From the NCBI GenBank assembly GCA_030390025.1, contig CM059443.1:6324001-6388000 (forward strand): a DNA stretch of 64,000 nt, in the 5' to 3' direction. Below, one piece after another: positions 21,220 through 61,782 of this stretch. Position 1 is the first letter of the stretch. The number at the start of each line of letters is the position of its first letter. The notes below the pieces were generated by a model. It was not told the origin of the DNA. It saw nothing but the letters and a program-made list of their open reading frames with translations, and searched no databases. Made by a program: the position numbers and the translations under genes. Source of the stretch: Squalus acanthias. Taxonomy: Eukaryota.

Positions 21220-22066
21220 GGGCTGGATTTTCCAAGCCCCGAGGAGGCGGGCATGGAGGCAGGACAGCCGGTAAAAATCGGAGAAAGTGGGGGCGGATGG
21301 CAAACCCGCCCCCATCCTGCCTCCGTGCCCTTTTGCCAGGAGGCGGGAGGAAGTGCAGCTTCGGGTCCCGTCTCCTGGAGGCGGGAAAGCCACTTAATCC
21401 TTTTAACTGCCTGTTAACAGGTAGTTAACAGGCAGAAAAAAGGATTAGTGCCATTTTACCTTCGCAGGTGAAGGCTTCCCGACCTCGGAGAACCCCGCCA
21501 GGTTGGAGGAGACGTGAAGGAGGTCTGCGGTGGTCGGAGGCACCTGGAAGTAAGGTGTAGAGGTGAGTGATGGGTGCAAGTGTGGAGTGGTAAGTATGTA
21601 AGGTGAGTGATAAGTTTAAAAAAGTGTTCACTTACCTTGTTTTCTTTCTACAGCCTTTAGCCGCGCTGGATCGGGAGAGCCGACATTCTCCTCGTCAATT
21701 TCAGATAATAGCTGTTGGATCCTCCGATCCTACAGACATGTGAAATTTACAACGTTGAAAGGTTTGATGAGTCCTCACCACGAAGACTCATCAAACTAAA
21801 GAGAATATCAGTGTTTGACAGCTTCACAGAGCTGTCAAACGCTGTCATTTCTTCTTTCAAGAAGTCTTGACAGATAGCAGGTCTGACATTGACGTGATCT
21901 ATCAGTGACTTCCTCCCTAATTGGCCTGCTGAGCCCACAGGGCGGGCTTAACAAGTTCAATTAGGGGAAAATCCCTCTGATTGGTCAGACGAGGATGGAG
22001 GCGGAACATTGACACGACAAGCAGCTGTCCCACCTCCAACTCGCCTCCATTCACAAAATCCAGCCT
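21220..22066. mobile_element. PIF/Harbinger-like MITE
   Basis: TIRs gggctggatttt and aaaatccagcct, with a 3-bp TSD CAA (21217-21219 and 22067-22069). Second copy at 58047-58893. Confidence 0.8.
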
Positions 22067-25000: not shown

Positions 25001-26510
25001 ATACTGCTCTGAGCCGCTCACTGCAGAATCTTTCAGAGGACCTGCTGGAATGAGAGGCTCTCACTGCTCTGCCATATTGGAGAGAATGTTGATATAAAGA
25101 ATACCAAGAAACTATTTAATGAGATAATTGTACATCTACTAAAAAGGGCAAATTGAGGGTGCCACCTTGCCTGGTTCTTATTGCTTTTCTCCCTCCCTAT
25201 GGACAATAGTTGAGCGTACCTCTGATTAAACGAGCTTGTTTCCCAATCTCCTACATTTATTTTAAGCTATTTCTCCCACAGATATTAATTTTAGGAATAA
25301 TTACTAAGATCAGCAGGACTTGGAGTTATTTATTTTTCTGAAAAGCAGTTTCCACCTGCAGTCTGCTCAGGTAACTGATCTCAGTCAAGCTTCAGTGAGC
25401 CCGAGTCAGGGAGAGAGTTCAGAGTTTGTGCTCCTGATTATTATCCAGCAACCCCTGCTGGAAGCGCATGTTTATTCTTATCTTATATTGTATTTGTGAT
25501 TTTGTTGGCAGCAATTCGGGATTTTTTTACTAATCGGGCACATCCTGGCCTGCCTGACTGGGCCTCACCCTGCCATCCTCAACCTGCCTCTTCAAATAAA
25601 GAGTTTGGAATAAGCAGGAGAGGTGTGGGATGCTGTTTCCGCAGAACACTTTTCAGAGAGACAGTGGGGCACAAACTAGGTCCAAAAAAAATGTCTTACT
25701 TATGCTGGGGCCGTTTCTAAATTATTTGTCTCAATGTGGGTGTACAGACTGCAAATTCTGGAGGCCCACATGAGGTCAGTCAGCATCTGAATAAGGTAAA
25801 TGCTGTGGGTGGGGTCCCTCGATCAGAGTTCTGTTGGGGTTCTGATGAAGGGCGTTGACCCTAGGACAGTTGGCGAGAGGGTAAGGGCGACTCTGGCAGA
25901 TGCTGGGTGACCTGCCGTGTGTTTTCAGCAATCCTAGTCGCTCCTTCTGTGCTGCAATCTGCTCTCAGTCTTGAACTGTTTAGTTTCTACGGGTACAAGG
26001 ATGCTCTCCTGTTGCGGAGCCCAATTGGACTTGTGGTGTCTGCCGGCGATTAAAATCGGTGGGGTGGGGGGGGGGGCGGGCGCACCCAACTCGTGGAGCA
26101 ATGCCATTCAGGCGCACTGATACCTGTGCCCGATTCTCCAAACCCCGTCAAGTACGGCCCAGTGTCAGGAGAGCCACCTTGAAAAATGTACACTGAGCTG
26201 TTTGATCTTTAGTTATTGAAGAGGAAAATCAAAAATAGAAAAGGATTTCTTTTGATCCTTATGCCAAGGCTCTTCTGGGACGAATATAACCTGTCCTTCA
26301 CGCTGCAAAATTCCTCCCAGGAAATCCGGTGGGTTCTCCCAGGATTTTTAATATATGAATCCAACCTAACGGGAATATACGCCCCTGTGCTGAACTGCTT
26401 TAGTGGAAAACAAACAAACATTCAGGCACTAGAAGCTCATAGAAGTCGTGCTCTGCCAGAGGCCCAGCACCCTTTAGTGAGAGGGTGTTGAGTAATCAGC
26501 CGCTCCCTAC

Positions 26511-26621
26511 CTCTCACGTAAAGATTAGCAGGAGGAGAATACCGCACCCCGGCGTTGTTCGATGCCACACATTCGTATTTCCCCTGGTCGGTTTCTTCGC
26601 TGTTCTCGATCTGCAGGGCAC
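26511..26621 (-). CDS. PTPRS: PTPRS coding exon, second part of Ig2 domain
   Basis: 111-nt phase 1-1 exon, acceptor tctcctgacag|GT and donor GAG|gtaggg. Encodes [37 protein letters not shown]; SEETDQG and AGVRYS are PTPRS-type. Confidence 0.95.
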
Positions 26622-29087
26622 CTGTCAGGAGACAAACGGCAGCAGAGGGAATTAAAATCCCGGGACTTCTCACGCACGACATGCAGAAATGGCCGCATTT
26701 CCCGACCGACCTTCGCGCAATGCCCTGTTTGGATCACCAATTCTGACGTCACAAGCCATGAGACCGGCTCACCCAAAGTGCTGTTCACTAGAAAAGCAGC
26801 TGGTCAAGGGGTAAGCTTGGGGCTGGGTATCTATTGCTGACCTGCGTGAGGAGAGATGGGCTTCTTAATCCGGGACCCCCTTCTCAGCTGTAATTTTTCC
26901 ACAGGTTGCTTCCCCCTCCCCACCCCAGGCCACACCAGAAGAGTGTGCCTACCTGCCCGTTGCAGTGCACGCCAATCGCCAATGCTGCAAGGCTCAACGG
27001 TGCCCACACACGGATCAAGTGCTCCAAAATGAGCGTGCCCCGGTCAGCTCTGGTGCAGTCTGTAAAAGGGGACGCGGCTCTAGGTTCTTTCAGCTGGAGT
27101 GAACCGAGATCAGTACCAGTACCAAACTGGCCCCCGAACCATCTGCTAGGGCAGTCTGAACAGGGCACAGGTAGTCATGAACACAGCACACGCCTGTTAA
27201 AGGGGTCCATTTAACAGGGAACACCTCAGGTTATATTCCACAGATTTGCTTTGTGGTCCGTATTGAAACAGAAAACACCCCGGGACCACACTTGCATTAA
27301 GAGACGTCAAGGTGGGTAAGCAGTGTGGGCAGGTACTGCAGCGACTCTAATTATGTTGGCCTTCACTGCTTACCCAATGGCACAGGGCAACCCTTTATCA
27401 GGGGGCATGTCTACCACACTAGCTTGGCACATTTTCAGTACCTATTTGCAACTATTCTATAGCCTAGCCGTAACCTTCTAACTGCAGCTAATTCAGCCAA
27501 TCCCACTGCCACAATCTCTCTACGGTGATTAACCCCTGGGGTGGGGGGGGAAAAGAGATATAATGCTGAATAGACAAGATGCTAGAAAGAGGAATATGGG
27601 CACTGAATGCGATTACACCTGTTTAAATTCGTATTGTGCACACTTAATTAGATGGGAAATTTCTCTGGGACCTGCGTTCAACATAGATCACCCTCAGCAC
27701 ACCGAGACTGAAATGGGGAAAAAAAAATCACTTGAGCATTTATAAAGCCAACCAAATATATTCTTCTACAATCCGGCGGAGGTATTAGTTCTCCGCTCCC
27801 AGTAACAAGGTCCCTCCATTTCTGATCGAAAGCCCACCCCCTCACATGGTCACCCCCTCACGCGGCCCAGTGTAGCCTTGGCACCGGCAGCTTTGAACCC
27901 TGACCCCCACAGACGTATTTCTGGTCAAGCTGGTTTGCTGCCTTGAACCCCTCTCACATGATTTATTTATACAGATACCACTGTAAAGAGCATCTTACAG
28001 CTGGGGAAAACACATTTGAGGTCAGAGGATTCGTTTCTTAATGAGGGACTGGGCCTGGAGGCTGTGGGTTCCTAGATTCCAATTCTGAGACAGTGGAACT
28101 TATTATTCAGATTATATTCCTAAAATGGAAAAATTAGGGCCAACATTGTTTTTTAAACTTCTTTTTGAGGAACTTCCAGGACTTTCCCTTCAGTTTTCAT
28201 CTCTTCTTTTCTGAAAGTGATGCCGGTGGCTGGATTATGATTTTTCAGGCCTCATCACTTTTCCGACACCTCGTCCAAGTGGCCATTCTTCATGACTGAG
28301 CCCAGACAATTAAGTGTCAGATGTCTAGACTATTCAACCATGCAGGGGCTTCACAGCTGAGCCCATCCTGTCCTCACCCAGCGCCCATTCGTGCACAGCA
28401 TTCAGGGACAGTGTTCAGGAGTGGAACCCCAAATTAATTTCCCCCCGTCCCTGCTCTTTCCCCGAAAAAACTGCGGTCAGCTGTAGTGCCCCAGCCTGCT
28501 AACATGGCAGAAACCAGGGATCAAACCCTGGATCTTGCCTGGTCTTTGTGGATCAGAAACACTGGGCCCAAAATTCCAGGATGCCCCCTCCCCCCCACTT
28601 TGCTCATGGGATGAGCAGAACTCCCAGCCCACCCTCCCCCATGCAGCCCACCAATTGTGGGGATGGGGGCCATATAATTTACATGGGGTAGGCACTTGGC
28701 ACCTGTAAGGGCGCATTAGTGGCACTCATACTGACGGAGGCCTGGAAATCTGGGGTTGGTGTCATGTCGCTATGATGCAGCACAATGGCCAGGGGAGAAC
28801 CTTGCCAAACAATTGCTCGCTCCCTCCTGCATTTTGGGGGCTTTTCAATGGCTTGCTCGGAGCAGGCATAGGTTCCGCTGGACCAATCAGGGACAGAACT
28901 GATTCATGAAGTCACAAGACCATCTGCACAAAATGTCCGCATCCAGCCTGCCTCCAACTAACGCTCTGAAGTTTAAAACAACGGGTGACCGAGAGACACT
29001 GTTATCAGCACAACCATCTCCCCTTTACACAGTTCCTCCATCCCTGAGCGAATGGGGGAACTAATCACATGATGCAGCTACACTCAC

Positions 29088-35861: not shown

Positions 35862-36679
35862 CAGACATTTTTAGTTAACAGGCACTTAAGTTAACTCAAA
35901 ATAGACCCAAATGCCTTAATCTAGTTCTTGGTGGGCATGGTGCCACGGCACAAAACTGCCCCTACGTTGCCACTCAGTTAGCATCCTCGCTCAGAGGAGC
36001 AATAGACGGCTGGTCTCGGAACTGGAAAGTGCCACCCTGCCTGCTCCAATGGCTCAGCAGGTTTATCCCGTGAGTGGCGGAGCCATTCAGATCTTTTCTG
36101 AAGGTGTTGACTCCTTGCTGGGGTATGGTGACGTGGCACCAATTGTCCTCCGGGACTTCACCTAAATAGCCATTACTGCTGAGTGCATCTAGACAGTGAG
36201 TGCTAAGAGGCCATTTGACCGCAGAGGGCATCACCGCAGATCCTACTCCTATCCTCACCAGACATCCACACGTGCACTTCCCGCAGGGGTCCCTACAGAG
36301 CAATCAGGAAGGAGAGCCCTGATTGAAATCCCCCTCCCTGATCCAAGGGCACCGAGAGTCCCACGGTAGCGCCCCTATGACCGATCTACTTGAGATGAGC
36401 CAATTCACCACAGACGGGGGGGGGGGGGGGGTCGAATGTGGGACTTTCTGGTCTGAATGGCTCCGCTACTCATGGGATAAACCTGCTGAGCCATTGGAGC
36501 AGGCAGGGTGGCAACTTTCTAGTTCCGAGACCAGCCGTCTATTGCTCCTCCGAGTGGGAATGCCATCTTAGTGCCAAAGGGCAGTTTTGTGTCATGGCAC
36601 CATGCCCACCAGGAACTAGATTAAAGCATTTGGGTCTATTTTGAGTTAACTTAAGAGCTTGTTAACTAAAAAACATCTG
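35862..36679. repeat. Long inverted repeat (about 230-bp arms)
   Basis: 35862-36091 is the imperfect reverse complement of 36450-36679, with a SINE body in the spacer. Confidence 0.9.
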
Positions 36680-37535: not shown

Positions 37536-37640
37536 GGCCAACAGGGTGAGCGGTGGGCACTCAGGGTGGTAGGAGGAAGGAAAGGGTGAAGGGTAGGAAG
37601 AGGAGAATAGGAAAATGTCTGATCGGTTGTGGAGAAAGGT

Positions 37641-37772
37641 CTGACGAAAGGTCATCGACCTGAAACGTTAACTGTTTCTCTCTCTACAGATGCTGCCTGA
37701 CCTGCTGAGTATTTCCAGCATTTTCTGTTTTTATTTCAGATTTTCAGCATCCGCAGTATTTTGCTTTTGTAT
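37641..37772 (+). mobile_element. Penelope-like terminal repeat with hammerhead core (family B)
   Basis: CTGACGA-A-AGGTC-ATC-GACCT-GAAA-C-GTT, then cagatgctgcctgacctgctgagtatttccagca. Related copies at 38250-38400 and about 25770-25935. Confidence 0.7.
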
Positions 37773-38249
37773 TGGAGGAAAAATTGATTCCCCGCCTATC
37801 TGGAGATTTGAGGAAGGCCGTGTTATTTAAACCTTTGCATTTCAAACAGGGGCTTCCTCAGCAGGTGAGCCCTGAAAGGGAATTGCTCAGTTTACGAGCA
37901 GGAAACCGGTGTTAAAAATAAATGAAACCCTGCTGGTGAATGCAGCCTGCTTGTGCTTCAACCTCCAGTTCCTGGCCTTCACAGGGAAGCGGCTTTTGAT
38001 GCGGGAGGGGTCGGAATTCCTTAAAGGGGATCCTTTCCTCACATTATTGGGGATGGCCCTGTTAATTAAAACTCCAAATGTATTCAAGTAACGCGGAAAC
38101 CCACCCTCTCTCAGTGGTGCAGGTCAAGAACAGGTTTTTAAGGTGCAGTCTGGGCAGCGGGGAGGCCATGGAGCCGGGTGAGGAGTCAGGGGCAGCCGAG
38201 GGGAGCGGGCCAGGTAGGAATGATGCAGGTCCCCAGAATGTTTATGATA

Positions 38250-38400
38250 GCAAAATACTGCGGATGCTGGAAAATTGAAACAACAACAGTTTAATTTCCT
38301 GCTTTTTTCTCAGTTCTGACGAAGTGTTTCGACCTGAAACGTTAACTCTGTTTCTCTCTCCACGGATGTTGCCTGGCCTGCTGAGTTTCCCCAGAATGTT
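38250..38400 (+). mobile_element. Penelope-like terminal repeat with hammerhead core (family B), partly inverted
   Basis: Inverted piece aaatactgcggatgctggaaa, followed by AGTT-CTGACGA-(stem II)-GAAA-C-GTT-AACT at 38312-38347. Confidence 0.7.
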
Positions 38401-40185: not shown

Positions 40186-41147
40186 CTTTAAGATTAAGAA
40201 ACAGAAAGAAAGAAAACATTATAGAAGACATTATTCAGCTACATAGTCATTGTTATGTAACATTAAAAAGCTTTAGACTTAAATGTTTTACTTAGGTTCA
40301 AACACATTAGAAAAAAAGAGGTTAATTCAATTCACTGTCATCTTATTTAAATGATTGTTAGTATTTTTTTGTTGTTAATATAATGAGCAACATGCATTCG
40401 CAAAATAGCAAGGATAGACCAGTTGCTAAAGTCAAAGTTCAAAACCATGGCAATAGAGGTCCTTGAACCTTTTGGGGAGTTCAATCATGTGAAGGATTAA
40501 GTGCAGCTCACTGCAGGATGTGAGGTTTAGATTAAACATTTATACGTTAGTTCCTTTTTTAAAATAGGTTTTATTTTAGACTTAGTATACAAGTTAAAAA
40601 ATTCAACCGGTCAGGTTTTTTTTTGGTACCATGTTCACTGAAGTTCTTGATACAACTTGTTCACTTTGCCAATGGTTCCACTGGGTTAAAATGGCTGCCG
40701 CCTCCTCACCTACACATACCACAACCAGCAAGGACAGCATAAAAGCTTCATAAGAGTTTCCCAATCCCAACGATTACTTTCAATTTGACACATTGGTCAC
40801 AGAATGGAATCCCAAATGGAAAAAAATAAGAGAGAGAAAAGAAAAACAAGAAGAAAAAGAACAAAAAATAAATAAATGGAGGTTACAGTAGGCCCAGGGA
40901 GGAAGAGCCACTTCAAAGAATATAATGAAAGGAACTGGAGATACAGTCACAGCAGTGAGCAGCGTGAATCAAAGAAAGCTCTACGCACAGGACAGACAGA
41001 CAGAATGACAAGCTATGAGGACGTCACAAACATCAACAGCAGTAACAGCTACACAAAGGTCTTTTGGTTCCACGTTTTCTCTTAAAGAAGCAGATTAATC
41101 ATTTTTGGATTTGTCGGTAATATTTTGGTTTTTTTTCCGGCCCCTAC

Positions 41148-41333
41148 CTGACCGCAACTGTTTGATGCGTGTACTGGAGCTCGGGTCGACAGGCAGGAAG
41201 TCTTTGAACCAGGTGATCTCGGGATCTGGGTTTCCACTGGCCGCGCACAGCATGGTAGCCGTTCGGGTACGCTCCACCACCTTCAGCTGGGGGCCCATGT
41301 CGATGTTAGGGAAGCCGGAAGGCAGCTGGTCCT
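41148..41333 (-). CDS. PTPRS: PTPRS (LAR-family receptor PTP sigma) coding exon, first part of Ig2 domain
   Basis: 186-nt phase 1-1 exon, acceptor ttttgctcgcag|AG and donor CAG|gtaggg. Encodes [75 protein letters not shown] matches PTPRS rather than PTPRD (EDQIPRGFPTIDM). Confidence 0.95.
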
Positions 41334-43149
41334 CTGCGAGCAAAAAGTGGAGAGGGAAGACAATTAGAAAAACTCAAACCTAGTTTACGTGAGGCCTGAA
41401 AAGGGAAAACCCCCAAATAGTCCATCCATTTTACTTAAATTGCATTGGGACCAGAAAGACAGAAAGTACTAATTAATGGACTCATTGACTCCAGTTGTGA
41501 ATGCAGGCCCAGGTGTGTAATCTAACCTCTTACCTGCCCCACTTAAATAGCCCCAACACCGAACAGCGCCAAACAGGGTGGTGGCACTGGGTCTGCAGAC
41601 TCCAAAATCCAGCAAAGTTGGCTAATTCGCCATCTTGACAGAAAACCGCACTCGCATTCCAAGAGCCAACCCTGAATTCCACCCTTTCGACATACAACGG
41701 GTTGAGAGGAACTTTATAGAGCACAATCTATACATTGTATGATGGACAGGAGTAGCAGAGATGCAGTATAACCCTCATGTTTTGTGAAGAATTGGCTTTT
41801 ACGCTGTAGAATTCTACACAGAACCACTTCGCTTGGCTAGAATTGTACAGAATCCAACGGTATGCTCATTCAGGGATGGAACAAGATGGTGATTTTGAGG
41901 GAGAGCTTTTTTTCTTGCCCCCCCCCATTTATTTTTAGAAATTCTCCCTTCCACCATTTCCCGCCCTGTCCATTGTCTTCCTTTCTGGTTCCACAGGCGC
42001 TGCTTAACCTTTCATACCTTCTCCAAGTGGCCGTTATTCATGCGTGGCCTAGACAGAGTGCGTCGGGAGGCTATTCAACCGGGCGGGGAAGGGGGGGGGG
42101 GCCCATTCGGTCCTTGTCCGACATCCACACAAGCACATTTTCCAGTAGGAGGTTGTTGACATCAATCGGCAGCAGGAATCCTTTTGACTTAAGGCCAATT
42201 GTAATGCTCATTCAGGAATGGAAAAAAGACGGCGTTTTTGAGGGAGAGTTTCTCTCATTGGTGGATAAATCCCAAAAAAACAGAGCCCCAAGTATCAGCA
42301 ACGTGAGATATACGCGAATTAATGGAAAGCTGGATTTAAAACGTGTGGTCCATGAGGCTTCATTGTGGGCCTCTGAGATGCGTACTAAGACAAAACGCTC
42401 GGACCTTCAGCTTGTTTCCAGGAATCTGGATTAAATTCAACAATCTGCCGAGTAGATCCTGAGCCCAATCGATATCCTTCCCTCCCTTCCTGCCACGTCT
42501 TGCGACAGCTGCTCTCCCTCTCCTTCTCAGTCACAAAGCAGCAGTCCACAATGTGCAGAGCCACGAGCTGGCCTGAGGTACGAGCTACATGGTGCATGGT
42601 TACTCCCGTACCACTTTTACTCTTCGTTTACCCCCTTACGGTAAAGAGAGGTGGACAGTTTCTGCTCAGCCACCTCCCCCACCATGGGGCAGTCTGGAGA
42701 GCTGTGTGGTAATAATTATGCCACTATTTACCGCGAACTGGCTCTTAGTTTGGATTCGGCATGTCCATTTAAGTCATATAAAAAAGAAAAATGTCTCGTG
42801 TAAAGCTCATCTCAAAGAAGTAGGTAAATCTTTCAAAGACTTGCCCGACATGCCATCAATTAGAGCAGCTCGTGGCAACACACCTTCCTCTCTGCAAAAC
42901 CGATTTAACTTCATAATCCTCTCCTCTGTCACATTGTACAAATTAGTGCCTGCATGAGGATATGCAAATGGCTGATTTGAAATCATTCAGGATGGAAGTA
43001 GGACTGATTCACCAACCTGACTGTTCCCAGAAGCAGTTTCAAATGCACATATTTAATTAATGGCCAGTTCCCAGAGTGAAAAATCTACATGAAAATAAGA
43101 TTACCATTTTTCTGTTTAATTAGAAAAGAACTAAAAAGGCAGTAATACT

Positions 43150-43560
43150 GCGAGAAAACTGTAGAGACAGAGAGAGAAAAATAAATAGACAGAGAGAAAA
43201 ACAGATAAAGAAATATGAAGAACAATAGGGAAAATAGACAAAGATAGATAGAAAGATGGAGAAAGAAATAGACAGAGAGACTGAAGAGAGAGTGAGAGCA
43301 CGAGATAAACAGGCACAGGCACACACAGACAGACTGAGAGAAGACACAGACAGAGCCCGACAGAGACAGACAGAGCCTGACAGAGACAGACAGACAGACA
43401 GACAGAAGACACAGAGACAGGCAGGCAGCGAGAGAGAGACAGACAGATAGACAGACAGAAGACACAGAGACAGGCAGGCAGCGAGAGAGAGACAGACAGA
43501 TAGACAGACAGAAGACACAGAGACAGGCAGGCAGCGAGAGAGAGACAGACAGAGAAAATA
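43150..43560. repeat. (GACA/GA)n tract with 53-bp higher-order unit x3
   Basis: Unit gacagaagacacagagacaggcaggcagcgagagagagacagacagatagaca starts at 43401, 43454 and 43507. Confidence 0.92.
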
Positions 43561-44055
43561 GATACTGAAAACAGGAGAGGAAGAAAAATAAGTGAGCCGG
43601 TGAAGGAGGAAGCCTCAAAATTCCTGCCAGTGATAATAGCAAATGCTGCCCAATATTTTAGCGAGGCACTAACCTGCGGACACAGGAATATTAATCTGCT
43701 GAATGCCAACAACAATTTCTAAGTATCAGAGAAAGGACAGAAAAAAAGGAAGACAGAGGGAGAGAGAGAGAGAGATACAAGTAATCAATGTCCAGCTGGC
43801 CCTACAGAACGAGAAGGGCAAAATAAATAAAAGATTTCCCAGCTGCCTGACAGAGCTGGACTCTAATTCTCGAAGCACACTCACGATCATTTGCCTTCCA
43901 TCTCGTCATCCCATGATTTCCATGGGAACAGTGTTGCTAAGTCAGAAGAGTACCAGGTGTCAGAAGGTCACACGAGAGATGCAAGTACTGTCCGTTTGGC
44001 TGATGTGTTGGTGACCCAGCCCTCCTCCGAAAACACGGCTTCTCATTTTGACAGA

Positions 44056-44262
44056 AGTGAGAAGTCGCACAACACCAGGTTATAGTCCAACAGCTTTATT
44101 TGAAATCACAAGCTTTCGGAGCGCTGCTCCTTCGTCAGGTCACCTGACGAAGGAGCAGCGCTCCGAAAGCTTGTGATTTCAAATAAAGCTGTTGGACTAT
44201 AACCTGGTGTTGTGCGACTTCTCACATTTGTCCACCCCAGTCCAACACCGGCATCTCCACAT
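44056..44262 (+). mobile_element. Palindromic hammerhead-bearing mini-element (family A, Penelope-like), copy 1
   Basis: Perfect 84-bp arms 44057-44140 and 44142-44225, then a 37-bp tail. Flanked by CATTTTGACAGA at 44044-44055 and 44260-44271. Confidence 0.85.
44139..44177 (+). ncRNA. Minimal type I hammerhead ribozyme motif
   Basis: Stem I GUCAC/GUGAU, core CUGACGA, an extra A, stem II GGAGC-AGC-GCUCC, GAAA, and a palindromic stem III AGCU. Predicted cleavage is after CUU at 44172. Confidence 0.7.
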
Positions 44263-44484
44263 TTTGACAGAGGCAGTTATATTGGCACAGTGGCGATCTG
44301 TTACAAGTCCATTCTCATCAGTTCCGTGCTAACGAGTTCAATAACTTGAATACAGGTGTGGTGAAACAGCATAATGGGCACGGCAAGGCCCCTTCAATCC
44401 TCCCTTGCGCTGCTCATGGTTCTCTAACATGACGCTTTCCACCTTCTCACTTTGGCTATGTGTATGGAGAGAGAACAGGTCGTT

Positions 44485-47619: not shown

Positions 47620-48515
47620 TAAGTGTTGATGTTCAGAGAGATTTGGGTGTCCTTGTGCAAGAAACACAGAAAGCAATAAGGAAGGCAAATGGCATGAGTA
47701 AGGAAGTCTTGCTACAATTGTACAGGGCCTTGGTGAGACCACACCTGGAGTACTGTGCACCAGTTTTGGTCTCCTTATCTAAGGAATGATATACTTGCCT
47801 AGGAGGCGGTGCAACGAAGGTTCACTAGACTGATTCCTGGGATGAGAGGGCTATCCTATGATGACAGATTGTGTAGAATGGGCCGATACTCTCTGGAGTT
47901 TAGAAGAATGAGAGGTGATCTCATTGAAACATACAAGATTCTGAAGGGGATTGACAGGGTAGATGCTGAGAGGTTGTTTCCCTTGGCTGGAGTGTCTAGA
48001 ACTAGGGGGCATAGTCTCAGGATAAGGGGTAGGCCATTTAAGACCGAGATGAGGAGGAATTTCTTCACTTAGAGGGTTGTGAATCTTTGGAATTCTCTGC
48101 CCCAGAGGGCTGTGAATGCTGAGTCATTGAGTATATTCAAGATGTGGAGATGCCGGTGTTGGACTGGGGTGGACAAATGTGAGAAGTCGCACAACACCAG
48201 GTTATAGTCCAACAGCTTTATTTGAAATCACAAGTTTTCGGAGCGCTGCTCCTTCGTCAGGTGAAGTAGGAGGACCTGACGAAGGAGCAGCGCTCCGAAA
48301 GCTTGTGATTTCAGATAAAGCTGTTGGACTATAACCTGGTGTTGTGAGTATATTCAAGGCTGAGATAGGTAGATTTTTGGACTCTAGGGGAATCAAAGGA
48401 TATGGGGATCGGGCGGGAAAGTGGAGTTGAGGTCGATGATCAGCCATGATCTTATTGAACGGCGGTGCAGGCTCGAGGGGCCGTATGGCCTACTCCTGCT
48501 CCTATTTCTTATGTA
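47620..48515 (+). mobile_element. Young CR1 LINE 3' fragment, interrupted by family A element
   Basis: LYRALVRPHLEYC and QRRFTRLIPGMRGLSY...RRMRGDLIETYKI. Near-identical to 50205-50972. Confidence 0.92.
48142..48344 (-). mobile_element. Palindromic hammerhead-bearing mini-element (family A), copy 2
   Basis: Same sequence as 44056-44262 in reverse orientation, with a longer central spacer and one shorter arm. 14-bp TSD TGAGTATATTCAAG at 48128-48141 and 48345-48358. Confidence 0.88.
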
Positions 48516-50204: not shown

Positions 50205-50972
50205 CATCCTGTATTTTGGTAGGAAGAATAGAAAAACAGAATATTTTTTAAATGGTGAGAAACTTTTAAATGTTGGTGTTCAGAGAGATTTGGGTGTCCT
50301 CGTGCAAGAAACACAGAAAGCTAGCATGCAGGTACAGCAAGCAATAAGGAAGGCAAATGGCATGTCGGCCTTTATTGCAAGGGGGTTGAAGTATAAGAGT
50401 AAGGAAGTCTTGCTACAATTGTACAGGGTCTTTTGGTCTCCTTATCTAAGGAAGGATATACTTACCTCGGAGACGGTGCAACAAAGGTTCACTAGATTGA
50501 TTCCTGGGATGAGAGGGCTGTCCTATGATGAGAGATTGTGTAGAATGGGCCTATACTTTCTGGAGTTTAGAAGAATGAGAGGTGATCTCATTGAAACATA
50601 TAAGATTCTGAAGGGGATTGACGGGGTAAATGCTGAGAGGTTGTTTCCCCTGGCTGGAGTGTCTAGAACTAGGGGGCATAGTCTCAGGATAAGGGGTCGG
50701 CCATTTAAGACCGAGATGAGGAGGAGTTTCTTCACTCAGAGGGTTGTGAATCTTTGGAATTCTCTGCCCCAGAGGACTGTGGATGCTGAGTCTTTGATTA
50801 TATTCAAGGCTGAGATAGATAGATTTTTGGATTCTAGGGTATTCAAGAGATGTGGAGATCGGGTGGGAAAGTGGAGTTGAGGTCCAAGATCAGCTATGAT
50901 CTTATTGAATGGCGGAGCAGGCTCGAGGGGCCGTATGGCCTACTCCTGCTCCTATTTCTTATGTTCTTATGT
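50205..50972 (+). mobile_element. Young CR1 LINE 3' fragment
   Basis: 196-aa ORF 50290-50880 is a CR1 ORF2 C-terminus. Tail ends cctactcctgctcctatttcttatgttcttatg. Confidence 0.93.
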
Positions 50973-51528: not shown

Positions 51529-52301
51529 GGGGTAAAAATTGAGTCGCGCCCCATTTGGGGCGCTAACCTCGCCGGGGCGCGACTTTTAGCGCCCCGAAAA
51601 AATTAGCGGCCCCGCGCCGGAACTTCAGTGGTTGCGCCCCAAGAGGGAAGCGGGGCGCAACTGGAAGCACGCCGCATCCCTCTTGGGGCGCTGCGAGTGA
51701 ATATCCTGGCGCTACGTGCCGCAGCGCCACGCGCTGCGGCACGTCGCGCCGCGGTATTGCAGGCCTTCCTCCCCTTCTTAAAGGGGAGGGACCCTGCGCA
51801 GCGCGAACCGGGGCCCAGCTGGGCCCCCAGGGATCGGGAGTGCCGGCAAAAGAGCCCGGCACTCAAGAGAAGTGCCGGGCTCTTGGAGCGCAGCCGGCAC
51901 TTCACGGTGGGGGGGCTTCACGGGGGCCGGGGACAGCAACGGGGGCAGGTGCTGGCAGGCGGCCAGCAACAAAAATGGCCGCCTGCCACCTCCCCTTTAA
52001 ATATCGCCGCCCCGGCCGCACGTACGCCTCCCTGAACCCGTCGGACATAGCGTCTGGCGGTAAATCAGGGGGCGCGACTGAAGATCACGGCCGGGGCGCG
52101 AGCGGGGTGCTGCGCACGGCAATGACGTCATCGCCGGCGGCGCAGCGCCACAGGGCGCTACCGGCTGCCGCCGCCGCTAACCTCCCACTAAATTTTTCGG
52201 GAGGCGTGGGCGGCGCTGCGCCCGGGCGTTAGCTGCTTTACGCCCCATTAGCGCCCTCTTAAGGCGCTAACGGGAGGCGCAAGCAGCTGAATTTTTCCCC
52301 C
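51529..52301. mobile_element. CpG-rich PIF/Harbinger-like MITE nested in a CR1 fragment
   Basis: 15-bp TIRs ggggtaaaaattgag and ctgaatttttccccc match 13/15, with a 3-bp TSD AAA. Removing the element restores CR1 sequence cacacaaagagtggtagaaatttggaactc (host about 51500-52520). Confidence 0.85.
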
Positions 52302-52960: not shown

Positions 52961-54514
52961 TAGTATCATGAGGGAATGACAGAAGCAAATTGTGAAAAAA
53001 ACATAGCTTAATATGTATTATCTAACTCTATAAACGATATATGACTGCAGCTGCTGACTTGTGCTGCAGGGGTACAGTGCCTTGCAGCAACGATGCAGTG
53101 CGTCACTGAGTGGTATATCACAGATCGATGCCCAGATTCCCTGCACGGTCAATGTCTAATCTTGTGTGTTCCATCGCGGGTCTGCCAAATGAATGAAAGC
53201 CAAGCATTTCATAGAGGGAAGGAGAAGGAAGTTAGACAGAAGGTCGTTCCAAGTAAGACCAGCACAGTTCCACTGGTAGAGACCTAGGAGGGATCCAACT
53301 TGTAAAACTCAGCCAAGGCAATGCAAGGCCGGAGAGCAGCACAGCAGAGGAAACCAGCAAATGCAGTGCTGTGTTATTATAAACTCGACACCTTCTGTGC
53401 ACAATCTGTACTCCGTACATGATCTAAACTTTACGCTGTATATTACAGAAGTCAGAAAAACAAACAGAAGAGAGCTGCTTTTATTAGCTTTTGTTTACGC
53501 GCATCCTGTTCAAATATTACAGCCGGCAGAATGTTTGGATGCGATTTACGATGGACCTTTGCAAGCATACAAATGAGAGGCAAGTTAGCCAATCTGTCCT
53601 GACCACTTTCCCCAATAGCTATTGTTATCCAAATACAATTTGTTTAACTACCCCTGATATTGTGAGAAGTCGCACAACACCAGGTTATAGTCCAACAATG
53701 CTGCAGTCTGTATGGAAAACCATAAACTTTAAACTTTTTACTTTTTTTTTTAACTGGAAATCACATCTGCGAATAACAACGACGACTGATATTGTGAGCC
53801 GGTTTAGGTGCCGATATTCCCCCTTTCTGATAATCCATCCAATTACAGGGCTTCCGTCCCAAAAATTACACATCTATTTGGGGCCGGAACCTGAGGCGTT
53901 GAGCCTCTCATCCTGTAATTCTGAGGCCCAACCTGTAAAGGTGAGCTCCACGATGTTGAACATTGGTCAGCTCAACTCTATTGGCGTGGCAGTGCAGCGA
54001 GGCGGACAATGAAGGCCAGCGACCCTCGAGTGTGCTTGCCCGGAGACAGGGTCTGAAGTTGCCAGCCCGGCTGGTGGGAGAATGCCAGCTCTTCCTCTGG
54101 TAACCAGTTGTGCGACAACATCGACTCCTCTGTGAGTCAGTGCTGTCAGTGAGGTGCCAGGGCAATGAGCTGTGCATCTTCAAAGGGATGAACTGTCTTT
54201 TAGCACAGAGTGTTTTACCCTGAAATCTGCCAGGCTTTGTTTATGCTATTCAAACCCTTCCCCATGGGACTTAAAACAGGCTCCGAGCTCATTTAACTCA
54301 GATTGGTGCATCTATATTTAATTTTTTTTTTTAAACAGTATCTTCATACCTCACCAGACATGTATTGCTTATTGGCTGAATACTGGTCATACTTCCTGAC
54401 ACACAGAATACAATGTACAAACTCCATCCTGTGCTGTTACTGGGTTTTATTTGGTGTAGTGGGACTAATACACTGCATTAGTTGTCAAGTCAATACACAA
54501 TAAAATTACTCTTG

Positions 54515-58046: not shown

Positions 58047-58893
58047 GGGCACGATCTTGCCAGCCCTGGGGAGGCGGGACTGCCAGGAAAATGGCAGAAT
58101 CTGGAGGCGGGTGCCCAACCCGTCCCCAAACCGCCTCCGTGCCATCTTGCCAGGAGGCGGGTAGCCGACCCGCGCCGGGTCCCGTCTCCTTGGAGGCGGG
58201 AAGGGGATTAGTGCCACATCTGCCTGTTAACAGGTAGTTAACAGGCAGATAAGAGGATTATCCCCATTTTACTCACACAATTGCGGGCTTCCCGAAGGCT
58301 CCGAACCCCGCCAGGGTCACCGAGGCGAGCAGTGGGTCTGCAGGGGTCGGAGGGGTGTAAAAGTGCGCTGTGTAAAAGTGCGCTGTGAAGGTAAGTGATG
58401 GGTACAAGTGTGGAGAGGTGAGTATGTGAGGTAAGTGGAAAGTGTTAATAAAAGTTTACTTACCTTTGTTCCTTCCTGCAGTCTTCAAGAGTTACGTATG
58501 CGGAGAGCCTCGCACCTCCGCAGCAAAGATGACAGATGGCCGCTGCATTCTCCAATGCAGCAACCATCTAATTTCTGCTAAAGAAAGAGGTTTGATGAGG
58601 TCTTGAATTCAAGAACTCATCAAACTACAGAGAATGTCAGTGTTTGACAGCTTCACAGAGCTGTCAAACGATGACAATTCATCTGTCAAAAATTTTTGAC
58701 AGATGAACATCATACGTTGACGTTCTCTGTCACCGGCTTCCCCTTAACTGGCCTGCTAAGCCCGCTGGGCGGGCTTCACAAGGTCAATCAAGGGAAAATA
58801 GCGTGGGTTGGCCAGAAGTTGATGGAGGCGGGACTGAAACCCGACAAGTGGGAGTCCCGCCTCCAAAAGCTCCCCATTGACAAAATCCAGCCC
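58047..58893. mobile_element. PIF/Harbinger-like MITE, second copy of the 21220-22066 family
   Basis: Shares tgcctgttaacaggtagttaacaggcag and gtgtttgacagcttcacagagctgtcaaacg. Ends aaaatccagccc. Confidence 0.8.
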
Positions 58894-60289: not shown

Positions 60290-61782
60290 AAATTAAAATA
60301 AGTTATGGACGAGATAGCAGAGGCTATTACAAATATATAAAAATTCATTAGAAAAGGGAATAGTGCCAGAGGACTGGCAGACAGCTAATGTTACTCCTAT
60401 ATATAAAAAGGAAGATAGAACAAGTCCAGAGAACTATAGACCAATGATTAGCTTAACATCGGTGGTAGGAAAGATAATCGAATCCTTACTCAAAGATGTA
60501 AGAAAAACATCTAGAAAATGAAAATATAATGAAGAGTAGTCAGCACGGATTCCAAAAGGGAAGGTCATGCTTGACCAGCCTTATTGAATTCTGTGAAGTA
60601 CTAATAGAAAGGGTAGATAAGGGTAATGTGGTAGACGTAATATATTTGGATTTCTAAAAAGCTTTCGATAACGTACCGCATAGTAGACTCATGTCTAGGC
60701 TCAGAACAATTGGAGTCAGGGGACAAGTAGCAGAATGGAGAGCAAGCTAGCTACAGAACAGAAAACAGAGAGTAGGGGTTAAAGGTAGTTACTCAGATTA
60801 GCAAATGATGGAAAGTGGTGTTCCACAGGGATCAGTGCTGGGACCACTGTTGTTCACCATTTATATAAACGATTTGGACTCAGGAATCGAAGTACAATTT
60901 CAAAATTGGTAGATGACACAAAATTGGGGCATGTAGTTAATTCAGAGGAGAGCTGCGACAAAATACAGGAAGACATTAATATACTTGCCGAATGGGCGTG
61001 TAATTGGCAAATGAACTTCAATATAGATAAGTGTGAGGTGGTACTTTTTAGTAGGAAGAATAAGGAAGCCACATATTACTTGGAAAATAAGTGTCTAAAT
61101 GGGGTAGAGGAACGGAGGGATCTGGGGTACAGATACACAAATCACTAAAAGTAGCGAAGCAGGTTAATAAGGCCATAAAAAAAGCAAACAAAGCACTGGG
61201 GTTCATTTCTAGAGAGATAGAATTAAAAAGCAGAGAAGTTATGTTAAACTTGTATAGGACCTTGGTTAGACCACACTTGGAGCACTGAACAGTCTGGTCT
61301 CCATATTATAAAAAGAATATAGAGTCACTGGAGAAGATGCAAAACAAATGACTAGAATGATACCAGAGGTGAGAGGTTATGCCTATCAGGAAAGATTGAA
61401 CAAACTGGGGCTGTTTTCTCTAGAAAAGAGAAGACTGAGGGGGGGCCTGATAGAGGTCTTTAAGATTATGAAAGGGTTCGATAGGGTAGATGTAGAAAAG
61501 ATATTTCTACTGGTGGGTGAGACCAGAACTAGGGGCCATAAATATAAGATAGTCACTAATAAATCCAATAGGGAATTCAGGAGAAACTTCTTCACCAGAG
61601 AGTGGTTAGAATGTGGAACTCGCTGCCAGTAGTTGAGACGAATAGCGTCGATGCATTCAAGGGGAAGCTAGGTAAGCAGATGAGGGAGAAAGGAATGGAA
61701 GGATAGGTTGATTGGGTGAGATGAAGGGTGCGAGGAGGCTCAGGTGGAGCATAAACACCGGCATGGACCTGTTGGGCCAAAT
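60290..61782 (+). mobile_element. CR1 LINE ORF2 remnant (RT domain to 3' tail), with frameshifts and stops
   Basis: [72 protein letters not shown]. Confidence 0.95.

What the first reader, a model, noticed from the sequence alone, without database searches (positions are those of the whole stretch)
44056..44262. Young palindromic mini-retroelement with back-to-back hammerhead ribozyme cores
Seen: a perfect 169-bp palindrome (84-bp arms around one base at 44141) plus a 37-bp tail, bounded by a 12-bp direct repeat. Each strand reads CUGACGA-A-GGAGC(AGC)GCUCC-GAAA-GCU-U-GUG from the centre outward. Known: Penelope-like elements (PLEs) carry minimal type I hammerheads with a short palindromic stem III, thought to cleave as dimers, and often have inverted terminal repeats. 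Inference: this is a ~200-bp non-autonomous PLE derivative, still mobile recently, that encodes a ribozyme core whichever strand is transcribed. In PTPRS pre-mRNA it would form either a long dsRNA hairpin or a hammerhead; the two folds exclude each other.
Basis: partly seen in the sequence, partly recalled or inferred. Interest (0 to 1): 0.75.

Follow-up and report, generated by a model that had tools for sequence, protein, structure and literature searches.

The report
Penelope-type hairpin stump with hammerhead motif
This is a real, well-preserved 200-base mirror-image insertion from a very abundant repeat family, most likely the truncated end of a Penelope-like jumping gene laid down in that group's already described "inverted copy plus tail" pattern, and its ribozyme motif is predicted to be locked shut by the hairpin, so it is mostly ordinary.

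Summary
A 99%-identical second palindrome (48142-48346) sits in a repeat whose empty paralogue proves the target duplication. Runs from three organisms give thousands of contigs, with 3' ends clustered near 44229-44234 and 44261-44262: the Penelope "tail" signature. Head-to-head inverted ends, the tail and opposite-strand hammerhead pairs are all published for Penelope-like elements. No link to an RT/GIY-YIG gene could be tested (no genome held).

Native stem I exists only on the + strand. The PTPRS-like host gene runs on the - strand, where the cut would be at 44110, and the hairpin is predicted to win by about 44 kcal/mol. Core bases were not better conserved than the rest (p=0.69). Earlier scan notes report the same kind of element in this genome and in two others. 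New member of a known kind; interest 0.2.

The parts
44044..44055 (+). left target-site duplication (12 bp)
   Evidence: chance control
44056..44056 (.). one extra base at the outer junction of the inverted arm
   Evidence: mismatch at arm position 85; not in the right direct repeat
44057..44140 (-). inverted arm, 84 nt, perfect copy of the sense arm, lacks the tail; in host pre-mRNA orientation it is the ribozyme-sense copy
44141..44141 (.). palindrome centre; T44140 and C44141 match the family's own upstream sequence
   Evidence: loose ends at 44140; copy 2 spacer
44140..44262 (+). sense unit: 3' end (pLTR plus tail) of the repeat family
44140..44176 (+). minimal type I hammerhead motif: stem I (4 native pairs), core, bulged A, 5-bp stem II, palindromic stem III half; predicted cut after 44172
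   Evidence: anatomy as in PMC4209133; no Rfam hit; cleavage untested
44106..44142 (-). mirror hammerhead core with damaged stem I (2 pairs, G.G mismatch, then 4 pairs of which 2 G.U); predicted cut after 44110
44190..44247 (+). 9-bp inverted repeat (44190-44198 with 44239-44247) predicted to close a stem-loop over the inner 3' end
   Evidence: 0 of 18 stem places variable vs 10 of 40 loop places (p=0.02, post hoc); fold z only -1.3
44226..44262 (+). tail present on one arm only; last 3 nt shared with the right direct repeat
   Evidence: 3' ends of family contigs cluster at 44229-44234 and 44261-44262
44260..44271 (+). right target-site duplication
   Evidence: a 94%-identical contig of run X10 begins here (record 16)
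48128..48358 (-). second palindromic copy: sense arm plus tail 48142-48262, 11-nt spacer, 73-nt inverted arm 48274-48346, 14-bp direct repeat 48128-48141 / 48345-48358, inserted in another repeat
   Evidence: empty paralogue at 50707-50964
53654..53798 (-). third insertion: 37 nt of the unit ending at the inner 3' end, joined to 88 nt of unrelated sequence, between 13-bp direct repeats
41098..41373 (-). host gene: frame holding the first exon of Ig domain 2 of a type IIa receptor tyrosine phosphatase (best hit PTPRS)
   Evidence: (E 2.7e-44)
26440..26733 (-). host gene: frame holding the next Ig2 exon
   Evidence: E 8.2e-20

Best explanation
The element is a target-duplicated insertion of a high-copy repeat end in head-to-head form, most likely a 5'-truncated Penelope-like element (PLE) whose mirror half was likely built during this one integration. 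Inferred mechanism: the PLE protein nicks both target strands 12 bp apart, and each 3' end primes reverse transcription on element RNA through a few base pairs. One strand starts at the outer site (tail end, about 44262), the other at the inner site (about 44226-44232). Both cDNAs stop just 5' of the hammerhead and are joined. The hammerhead motif is inherited from the pLTR; it would need a same-sense partner and probably protein to cleave, and here it is predicted to be silenced by the 84-bp hairpin in either transcript. Shown: palindrome, duplication, tail, family abundance, two clusters of 3' ends, junction microhomologies, host strand. Inferred: PLE membership, double priming, ribozyme silence.
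For: Anatomy matches published PLE insertions: head-to-head inverted pLTR, 30-40-bp tail on one arm, 8-10-bp TSD (PMC3846280, PMC8557442). Target duplication verified on copy 2 by an empty paralogue. Family contigs in 4 of 4 runs (3 organisms) end near 44229-44234 and 44261-44262 (the listed rows of table 7); the third window insertion ends at 44226. The purified Anolis PLE cleaves and extends both target strands and has two RT starts that delimit the tail (PMC11167929). Outer junctions share 3, 0, 1, 2 and 6 nt with the target (sum 12 over 5 of 5 junctions, p about 4e-5 at 0.25 per base). At the junction scored 0, six target bases pair with the unit RNA (one G.U) one base further out. Copies 1 and 2 differ in spacer and arm length. 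Hairpin favoured by 44-47 kcal/mol; stem II pair probability about 1e-19.
Against: No RT or GIY-YIG gene is linked to the arm here: no genome is held; 129 window frames gave no GIY-YIG and one weak RVT_1 hit 16 kb away; four collection scans were empty; the protein search was empty. No Rfam hammerhead match. Core bases are not significantly better conserved. PMC11167929 reports priming at RNA sites not homologous to the cut DNA, unlike the microhomologies seen here, which could also come from end joining. Copy 2's inverted arm ends 12-20 nt short of the inner cluster. One junction score (1 nt) rests on a low-agreement consensus. Only two palindromes were compared in full.
Confidence: 0.68

Rival explanations
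1. Same PLE origin, but the mirror half arises by fold-back self-priming of one nucleic-acid strand, and its outer end is then joined to the target by microhomology.
For: Proposed for head-to-head PLE junctions in PMC3846280 (Discussion). The two arms of copy 1 are identical even at places that vary in the family, as a single template predicts. Both inverted arms in the window begin at the same base, 2 nt before the core.
Against: A 1-nt loop cannot close a priming hairpin (established RNA/DNA folding; inference). The inverted arm of copy 1 ends near the family's inner 3'-end cluster. Both-strand extension is shown in vitro (PMC11167929). Arm identity is also expected from two RNAs of one young source, since copies 1 and 2 are 99% identical.
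Confidence: 0.18
2. One reading: a self-propagating ~200-bp palindromic non-autonomous element, transcribed and re-inserted as a whole.
For: Two palindromic copies within 4 kb, 99% identical, each with its own target duplication. Non-autonomous PLE derivatives exist (PMC8557442 passages; bioRxiv 2026.07.22.740005).
Against: Spacers (1 vs 11 nt) and inverted-arm lengths (84 vs 73 nt) differ. Family contigs continue upstream of 44140 into non-mirror sequence. Described animal retrozymes are head-to-tail tandem repeats, not palindromes.
Confidence: 0.07
3. A non-PLE element (a MITE-like DNA transposon or a SINE-like repeat) that happens to hold a hammerhead-like string.
For: Inverted arms plus a target duplication; no PLE ORF link shown; no Rfam hammerhead match.
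Against: Ends are asymmetric (tail on one arm) and vary between copies, and duplications vary (12, 12-14, 13 bp), unlike the fixed ends of cut-and-paste elements (established knowledge). The motif has the bulged base, G-C first pair of stem II and palindromic 15.2-16.2 listed for PLE minimal hammerheads (PMC4209133).
Confidence: 0.04
4. The insertion acts as a hairpin-versus-ribozyme switch that affects the host PTPRS-like pre-mRNA.
For: It lies 2.7 kb upstream of a - strand exon of the gene, and a second core in the same orientation lies 4.1 kb away.
Against: Hairpin favoured by 44 kcal/mol; the antisense arm is transcribed before the core; stem I is damaged on that strand; the partner core in copy 2 has lost the stem III palindrome. 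The insertion is young and seems absent at the matching site in organism E (suggestive only).
Confidence: 0.03

Closest known systems
EN+ Penelope-like element insertions with inverted pLTR and tail (Adineta vaga Pen2a/Pen2; PMC3846280, passages and Discussion read; PMC8557442 Fig. 2 legend and passages)
   Same: Head-to-head inverted copy, 30-40-nt tail on one arm only, shorter inverted arm, target-site duplication, solo pLTR inserts, capture of unrelated sequence between duplications.
   Different: No ORF between the repeats; duplications of 12-14 bp rather than 8-10; a 1-nt centre; vertebrate host.
[quoted passage not shown]
   Same: Type I core, bulged base between 9 and 10.1, G10.1-C11.1, 4-bp stem I, palindromic 15.2-16.2 with no loop 3. 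That paper already notes dual motifs 100-700 bp apart on opposite strands and many single motifs from truncated PLEs.
   Different: Stem II is 5 bp (7-8 in the Schistosoma families); cores are only 6 nt apart; cleavage is not tested here; sharks were not found in the two supplement files searched (file 1 could not be searched).
PAc, Poseidon PLE of Anolis carolinensis (Frangieh et al. 2024, PMC11167929; main text read)
   Same: Two 3' ends about 30-35 nt apart, an AC-rich stem-loop near them, hammerhead upstream, AT-rich targets.
   Different: In PAc the ORF starts inside the hammerhead; here no ATG lies in the unit, and the first appears just past the tail's low-agreement consensus. PAc primes without homology in vitro; these junctions show short microhomology.
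Animal non-LTR retrozymes (bioRxiv 10.64898/2026.07.22.740005; first fifth and passages read)
   Same: Short, non-coding, type I hammerhead, PLE-related; one chondrichthyan genome was positive.
   Different: Retrozymes are defined as head-to-tail tandem repeats that allow dimers; this is a head-to-head palindrome whose cores lie on opposite strands.

Membership tests
Penelope-like elements (EN+) | Repeat is the terminus of an ORF with telomerase-like RT plus GIY-YIG endonuclease | not testable with these tools
   No genome; no GIY-YIG in 129 window frames; collection scans empty; protein search empty. Earlier scan notes report intact PLEs in this genome; not checked, family identity unknown.
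Penelope-like elements (EN+) | Inverted 5'-truncated copy adjacent head-to-head | tested here: met
   two copies in the window.
Penelope-like elements (EN+) | 30-40-nt tail at one end; two alternative 3' ends | tested here: met
   (34-37 nt); one search end clusters at 44229-44234 and 44261-44262; copy 3 ends at 44226.
Penelope-like elements (EN+) | Variable-length target-site duplication | tested here: met
   12, 12-14 and 13 bp in 3 of 3 insertions; verified by an empty paralogue for copy 2.
Minimal type I hammerhead (PLE type) | Eleven core bases, stem II, stem I, palindromic 15.2-16.2 | tested here: met
   + strand motif complete; - strand motif has damaged stem I.
Minimal type I hammerhead (PLE type) | Match to a curated Rfam hammerhead model | tested here: not met
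   E<=10. Not a defining feature of the minimal class, which was found with a descriptor lacking helix III (PMC4209133).
Minimal type I hammerhead (PLE type) | Core conserved above background across copies | tested here: inconclusive
   1 of 11 vs 20 of 110, p=0.69. Changes inside the motif fall at N7, N17 (U to C), loop II, one stem I place and CpG sites. Contigs were selected at >=85% identity.
Minimal type I hammerhead (PLE type) | Self-cleavage as a dimer | not testable with these tools
   Bench assay needed; contigs cannot show RNA ends.
Non-LTR retrozymes | Head-to-tail tandem units each with a hammerhead | tested here: not met
   Both palindromes are head-to-head; no tandem copy in the window.
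MITE / cut-and-paste non-autonomous elements | Fixed symmetric termini and fixed duplication length | tested here: not met
   Ends and duplication lengths differ among 3 insertions.

The most novel reading that the evidence does not exclude
These stumps are direct genomic records of a twin-primed PLE integration. Both target nicks prime on element RNA through short base pairing, including G.U, at the two tail-defining sites, and both cDNAs halt at the 5' edge of the hammerhead, so each insertion comes out as a self-silencing palindrome. A family this abundant would let the open question of how PLE inverted repeats form be settled by counting junctions.
Probability: 0.3. Interest if true: 0.45.

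Novelty: new member of a known kind. Interest (0 to 1): 0.2.

Why it matters
As a single insertion it matters little: the architecture and the ribozyme type are published. Its value is as material. How PLEs form inverted repeats and tails is still called undefined in PMC8557442, and thousands of young, target-duplicated copies with readable junctions could separate twin priming from fold-back priming. Long perfect hairpins in introns could also be sources of double-stranded RNA (inference, untested).

Tried and rejected
Whole-genome search: no genome is held, so copy number and ORF linkage are open. Pattern scans of metagenome contigs, viral contigs and prokaryote genomes: 0 hits each, as expected for a vertebrate repeat. 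Rfam: only sub-threshold microRNA-hairpin models and noise; the microRNA hits reflect the palindrome and were rejected. Pfam on 129 of the 132 window frames of 84 aa or more (three low-complexity frames at 43088-43718 left out; 213 frames of 62-83 aa not scanned): 3 of 129 had hits, none GIY-YIG. Protein search with a 40-aa frame over copy 2: 45 candidates, none at E<=1; weak evidence. Polymorphism in the host species: runs X1, X2 and X6 gave no cover of the flanks, so it is untested. The depth dip at 44138-44139 was set aside as an end effect. Fold z-scores of the single unit, the hammerhead and the 3' stem-loop are unremarkable (-0.9, -1.1, -1.3). No upstream Ig1 exon was found in the window by short motifs, so the intronic position is inferred. 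Lunse et al. (PMC5785218) is not held and was seen only as cited in PMC6765202. Paper searches for this family in sharks: 1 review listed and not read, 0 papers, general listings only; 'Penelope' plus 'twin priming' gave 3 listings, none on PLEs by title. Repbase, Dfam and subscription journals were not searchable, so the family may already be named. Scan look-ups by sequence, near and relatives were empty.

Full report
1. Observation. The sequence and a script confirm perfect 84-bp arms at 44057-44140 and 44142-44225 around C44141, and a 12-bp direct repeat at 44044-44055 and 44260-44271. Nothing else in the window comes close: the next perfect palindrome is 27 bp and belongs to a second copy. 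All 4 of the 12-mer repeats at 200-230 nt spacing in the window belong to these two elements. The hammerhead-like string is on both strands. A relaxed descriptor finds 5 cores in the window against 0.3 in Markov controls. Rfam gives no hammerhead match at E<=10.

2. It is a family. The window holds two more insertions. Copy 2 (48142-48346, sense on -) shares 120 of 121 nt of arm plus tail, but has an 11-nt spacer and a 73-nt inverted arm. It interrupts another repeat, and a paralogue of that repeat at 50707-50964 is continuous with the duplicated word present once, which proves target-site duplication for this copy. Copy 3 (53654-53798) is 37 nt of the unit ending at the equivalent of 44226, joined to 88 nt of unrelated sequence between 13-bp repeats. 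Of 24 runs listed I laid 4: 10,985, 14,276, 4,204 and 27,933 contigs fit, almost all on the element alone. These are contig counts, not copy numbers, but they show an abundant family in three organisms. Among the loose-end rows shown (24, with 633 not shown), 3' ends cluster at 44229-44234 (three runs) and 44261-44262 (all four runs), and 5' of 44140 the family continues into sequence unrelated to the left arm. So T44140 and C44141 belong to the sense unit and the mirror half is an addition. One contig of run X10 (organism E) matches 44260-44480 with 13 differences in 221 and starts exactly at the right repeat; this suggests an empty orthologous site, but the joint itself was not among the 15 of 242 shown. 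Runs X1, X2 and X6 did not cover the flanks, so polymorphism is untested.

3. Age. There are no differences in 84 arm pairs plus 12 repeat pairs (upper 95% bound about 3%), and copies 1 and 2 are 99% identical. The insertion is young relative to the 6% flank divergence from organism E. Arm homogenisation could make it look younger (inference).

4. Host context. Two frames on the - strand match consecutive parts of Ig domain 2 of type IIa receptor phosphatases, with PTPRS on top. The element is 2.7 kb upstream of the first of them; no earlier exon was found by motif in the window, so the intronic position is inferred. The pre-mRNA is therefore the - strand. The organism was not determined here; earlier scan notes call this genome shark-like (unchecked).

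5. The ribozyme. On + the motif has four native stem I pairs (seven in the palindrome context), the core, a bulged A, a 5-bp stem II and a palindromic stem III half, and the isolated 37 nt fold that way. These are the traits listed for PLE minimal hammerheads in PMC4209133 (results and discussion read), which also reports no cleavage for a single motif and low cleavage for dimers. On - stem I has two pairs and then a G.G mismatch. In the full element the hairpin has an energy of -167 (+) or -176 (-) kcal/mol, forcing stem II costs 47 or 44 kcal/mol, and the stem II pair probability is about 1e-19. Because the arms are head-to-head, the antisense arm is always made before the core (read from the sequence). 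The two cores are on opposite strands and cannot pair as a dimer in one RNA. The only same-strand partner in the pre-mRNA, copy 2's sense core, carries the one substitution that breaks the stem III palindrome. Conservation did not help: folding one search's variable places onto one arm gives 21 of 121, with 1 of 11 core places and 20 of 110 others (p=0.69). The least variable parts include a 9-bp inverted repeat (44190-44198 with 44239-44247; 0 of 18 places against 10 of 40 in the loop, p=0.02, post hoc).

6. Mechanism. PMC3846280 (passages and Discussion) and PMC8557442 (passages) describe this layout for PLEs: an inverted, shorter copy head-to-head, a 30-40-bp tail on one arm, a target duplication and solo repeats; PMC8969392 (passages) lists it in a curation guide. 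PMC11167929 (main text) shows that a purified PLE protein cleaves and extends both target strands, starts at two RNA sites that delimit the tail, and does not need ribozyme cleavage. I infer that both nicks primed here, one at each site, and that the two cDNAs were joined just 5' of the hammerhead. The five outer junctions in the window share 3, 0, 1, 2 and 6 nt with the target (p about 4e-5, or 1e-4 without the least certain one); at the junction scored 0, six target bases pair with the unit RNA, one as G.U, one base further out. Against this, the Anolis protein primes without homology in vitro, end joining also leaves microhomology, and copy 2's inverted arm stops 12-20 nt short of the inner cluster. 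Fold-back self-priming, proposed in PMC3846280, remains possible. Unexplained: both inverted arms start at the same base, 2 nt before the core (n=2).

7. Membership. Three PLE structural features were tested and met; the defining one, an RT plus GIY-YIG ORF, could not be tested. It works like a PLE end, and is probably one (about 0.9, my estimate). It fails the tandem criterion for retrozymes (bioRxiv 2026.07.22.740005, first fifth and passages) and the fixed-end criterion for MITEs.

8. Novelty. The architecture, the ribozyme type and opposite-strand hammerhead pairs are all in print. I found no paper on this family, but Repbase, Dfam and most subscription journals were not searchable, and one supplement of PMC4209133 could not be read. 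Earlier scan notes describe the same kind of element in this genome and in two others; one of them states the 'mirror half built anew' reading, which I tested on the two copies here and reuse. Verdict: real, new member of a known kind, interest 0.2.

Noticed in passing
window 37636-37770 (+) and about 38317-38400 (+): A second, different hammerhead-like repeat family: core at 37641 with 5-bp stem II, palindromic stem III half and 3-bp stem I; a more decayed copy near 38317; a 41-bp inverted piece at 38249-38289.
   Followed up: partly
window 53654-53798: The 37-nt family fragment is joined to 88 nt of unrelated A-rich sequence inside one 13-bp duplication, which looks like capture by template switching; the 88 nt have no long match elsewhere in the window.
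   Followed up: partly
window 48235 (copy 2, unit position 28): The only difference between copy 2's sense arm and copy 1 breaks the stem III palindrome, in the orientation of the host pre-mRNA. A single event; may be chance.
   Followed up: partly
window 35868-36672: An 800-bp fold-back with nested inverted arms of 94, 64 and 62 nt at 86-97%; possibly a MITE.
   Followed up: no
window 21395-21849 and 58219-58674: Two inverted copies, 36.8 kb apart, of a repeat with internal short palindromes.
   Followed up: no
window 60789-61145 (+): Weak RVT_1 match (E 0.003, below cut-off), probably a decayed LINE piece.
   Followed up: no
loose ends after 44262: The low-agreement consensus continues with an ATG right after the tail end in all four runs, a candidate start codon of the parent element's ORF.
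   Followed up: no
window 51619-51884: A cluster of short GC-rich inverted repeats.
   Followed up: no
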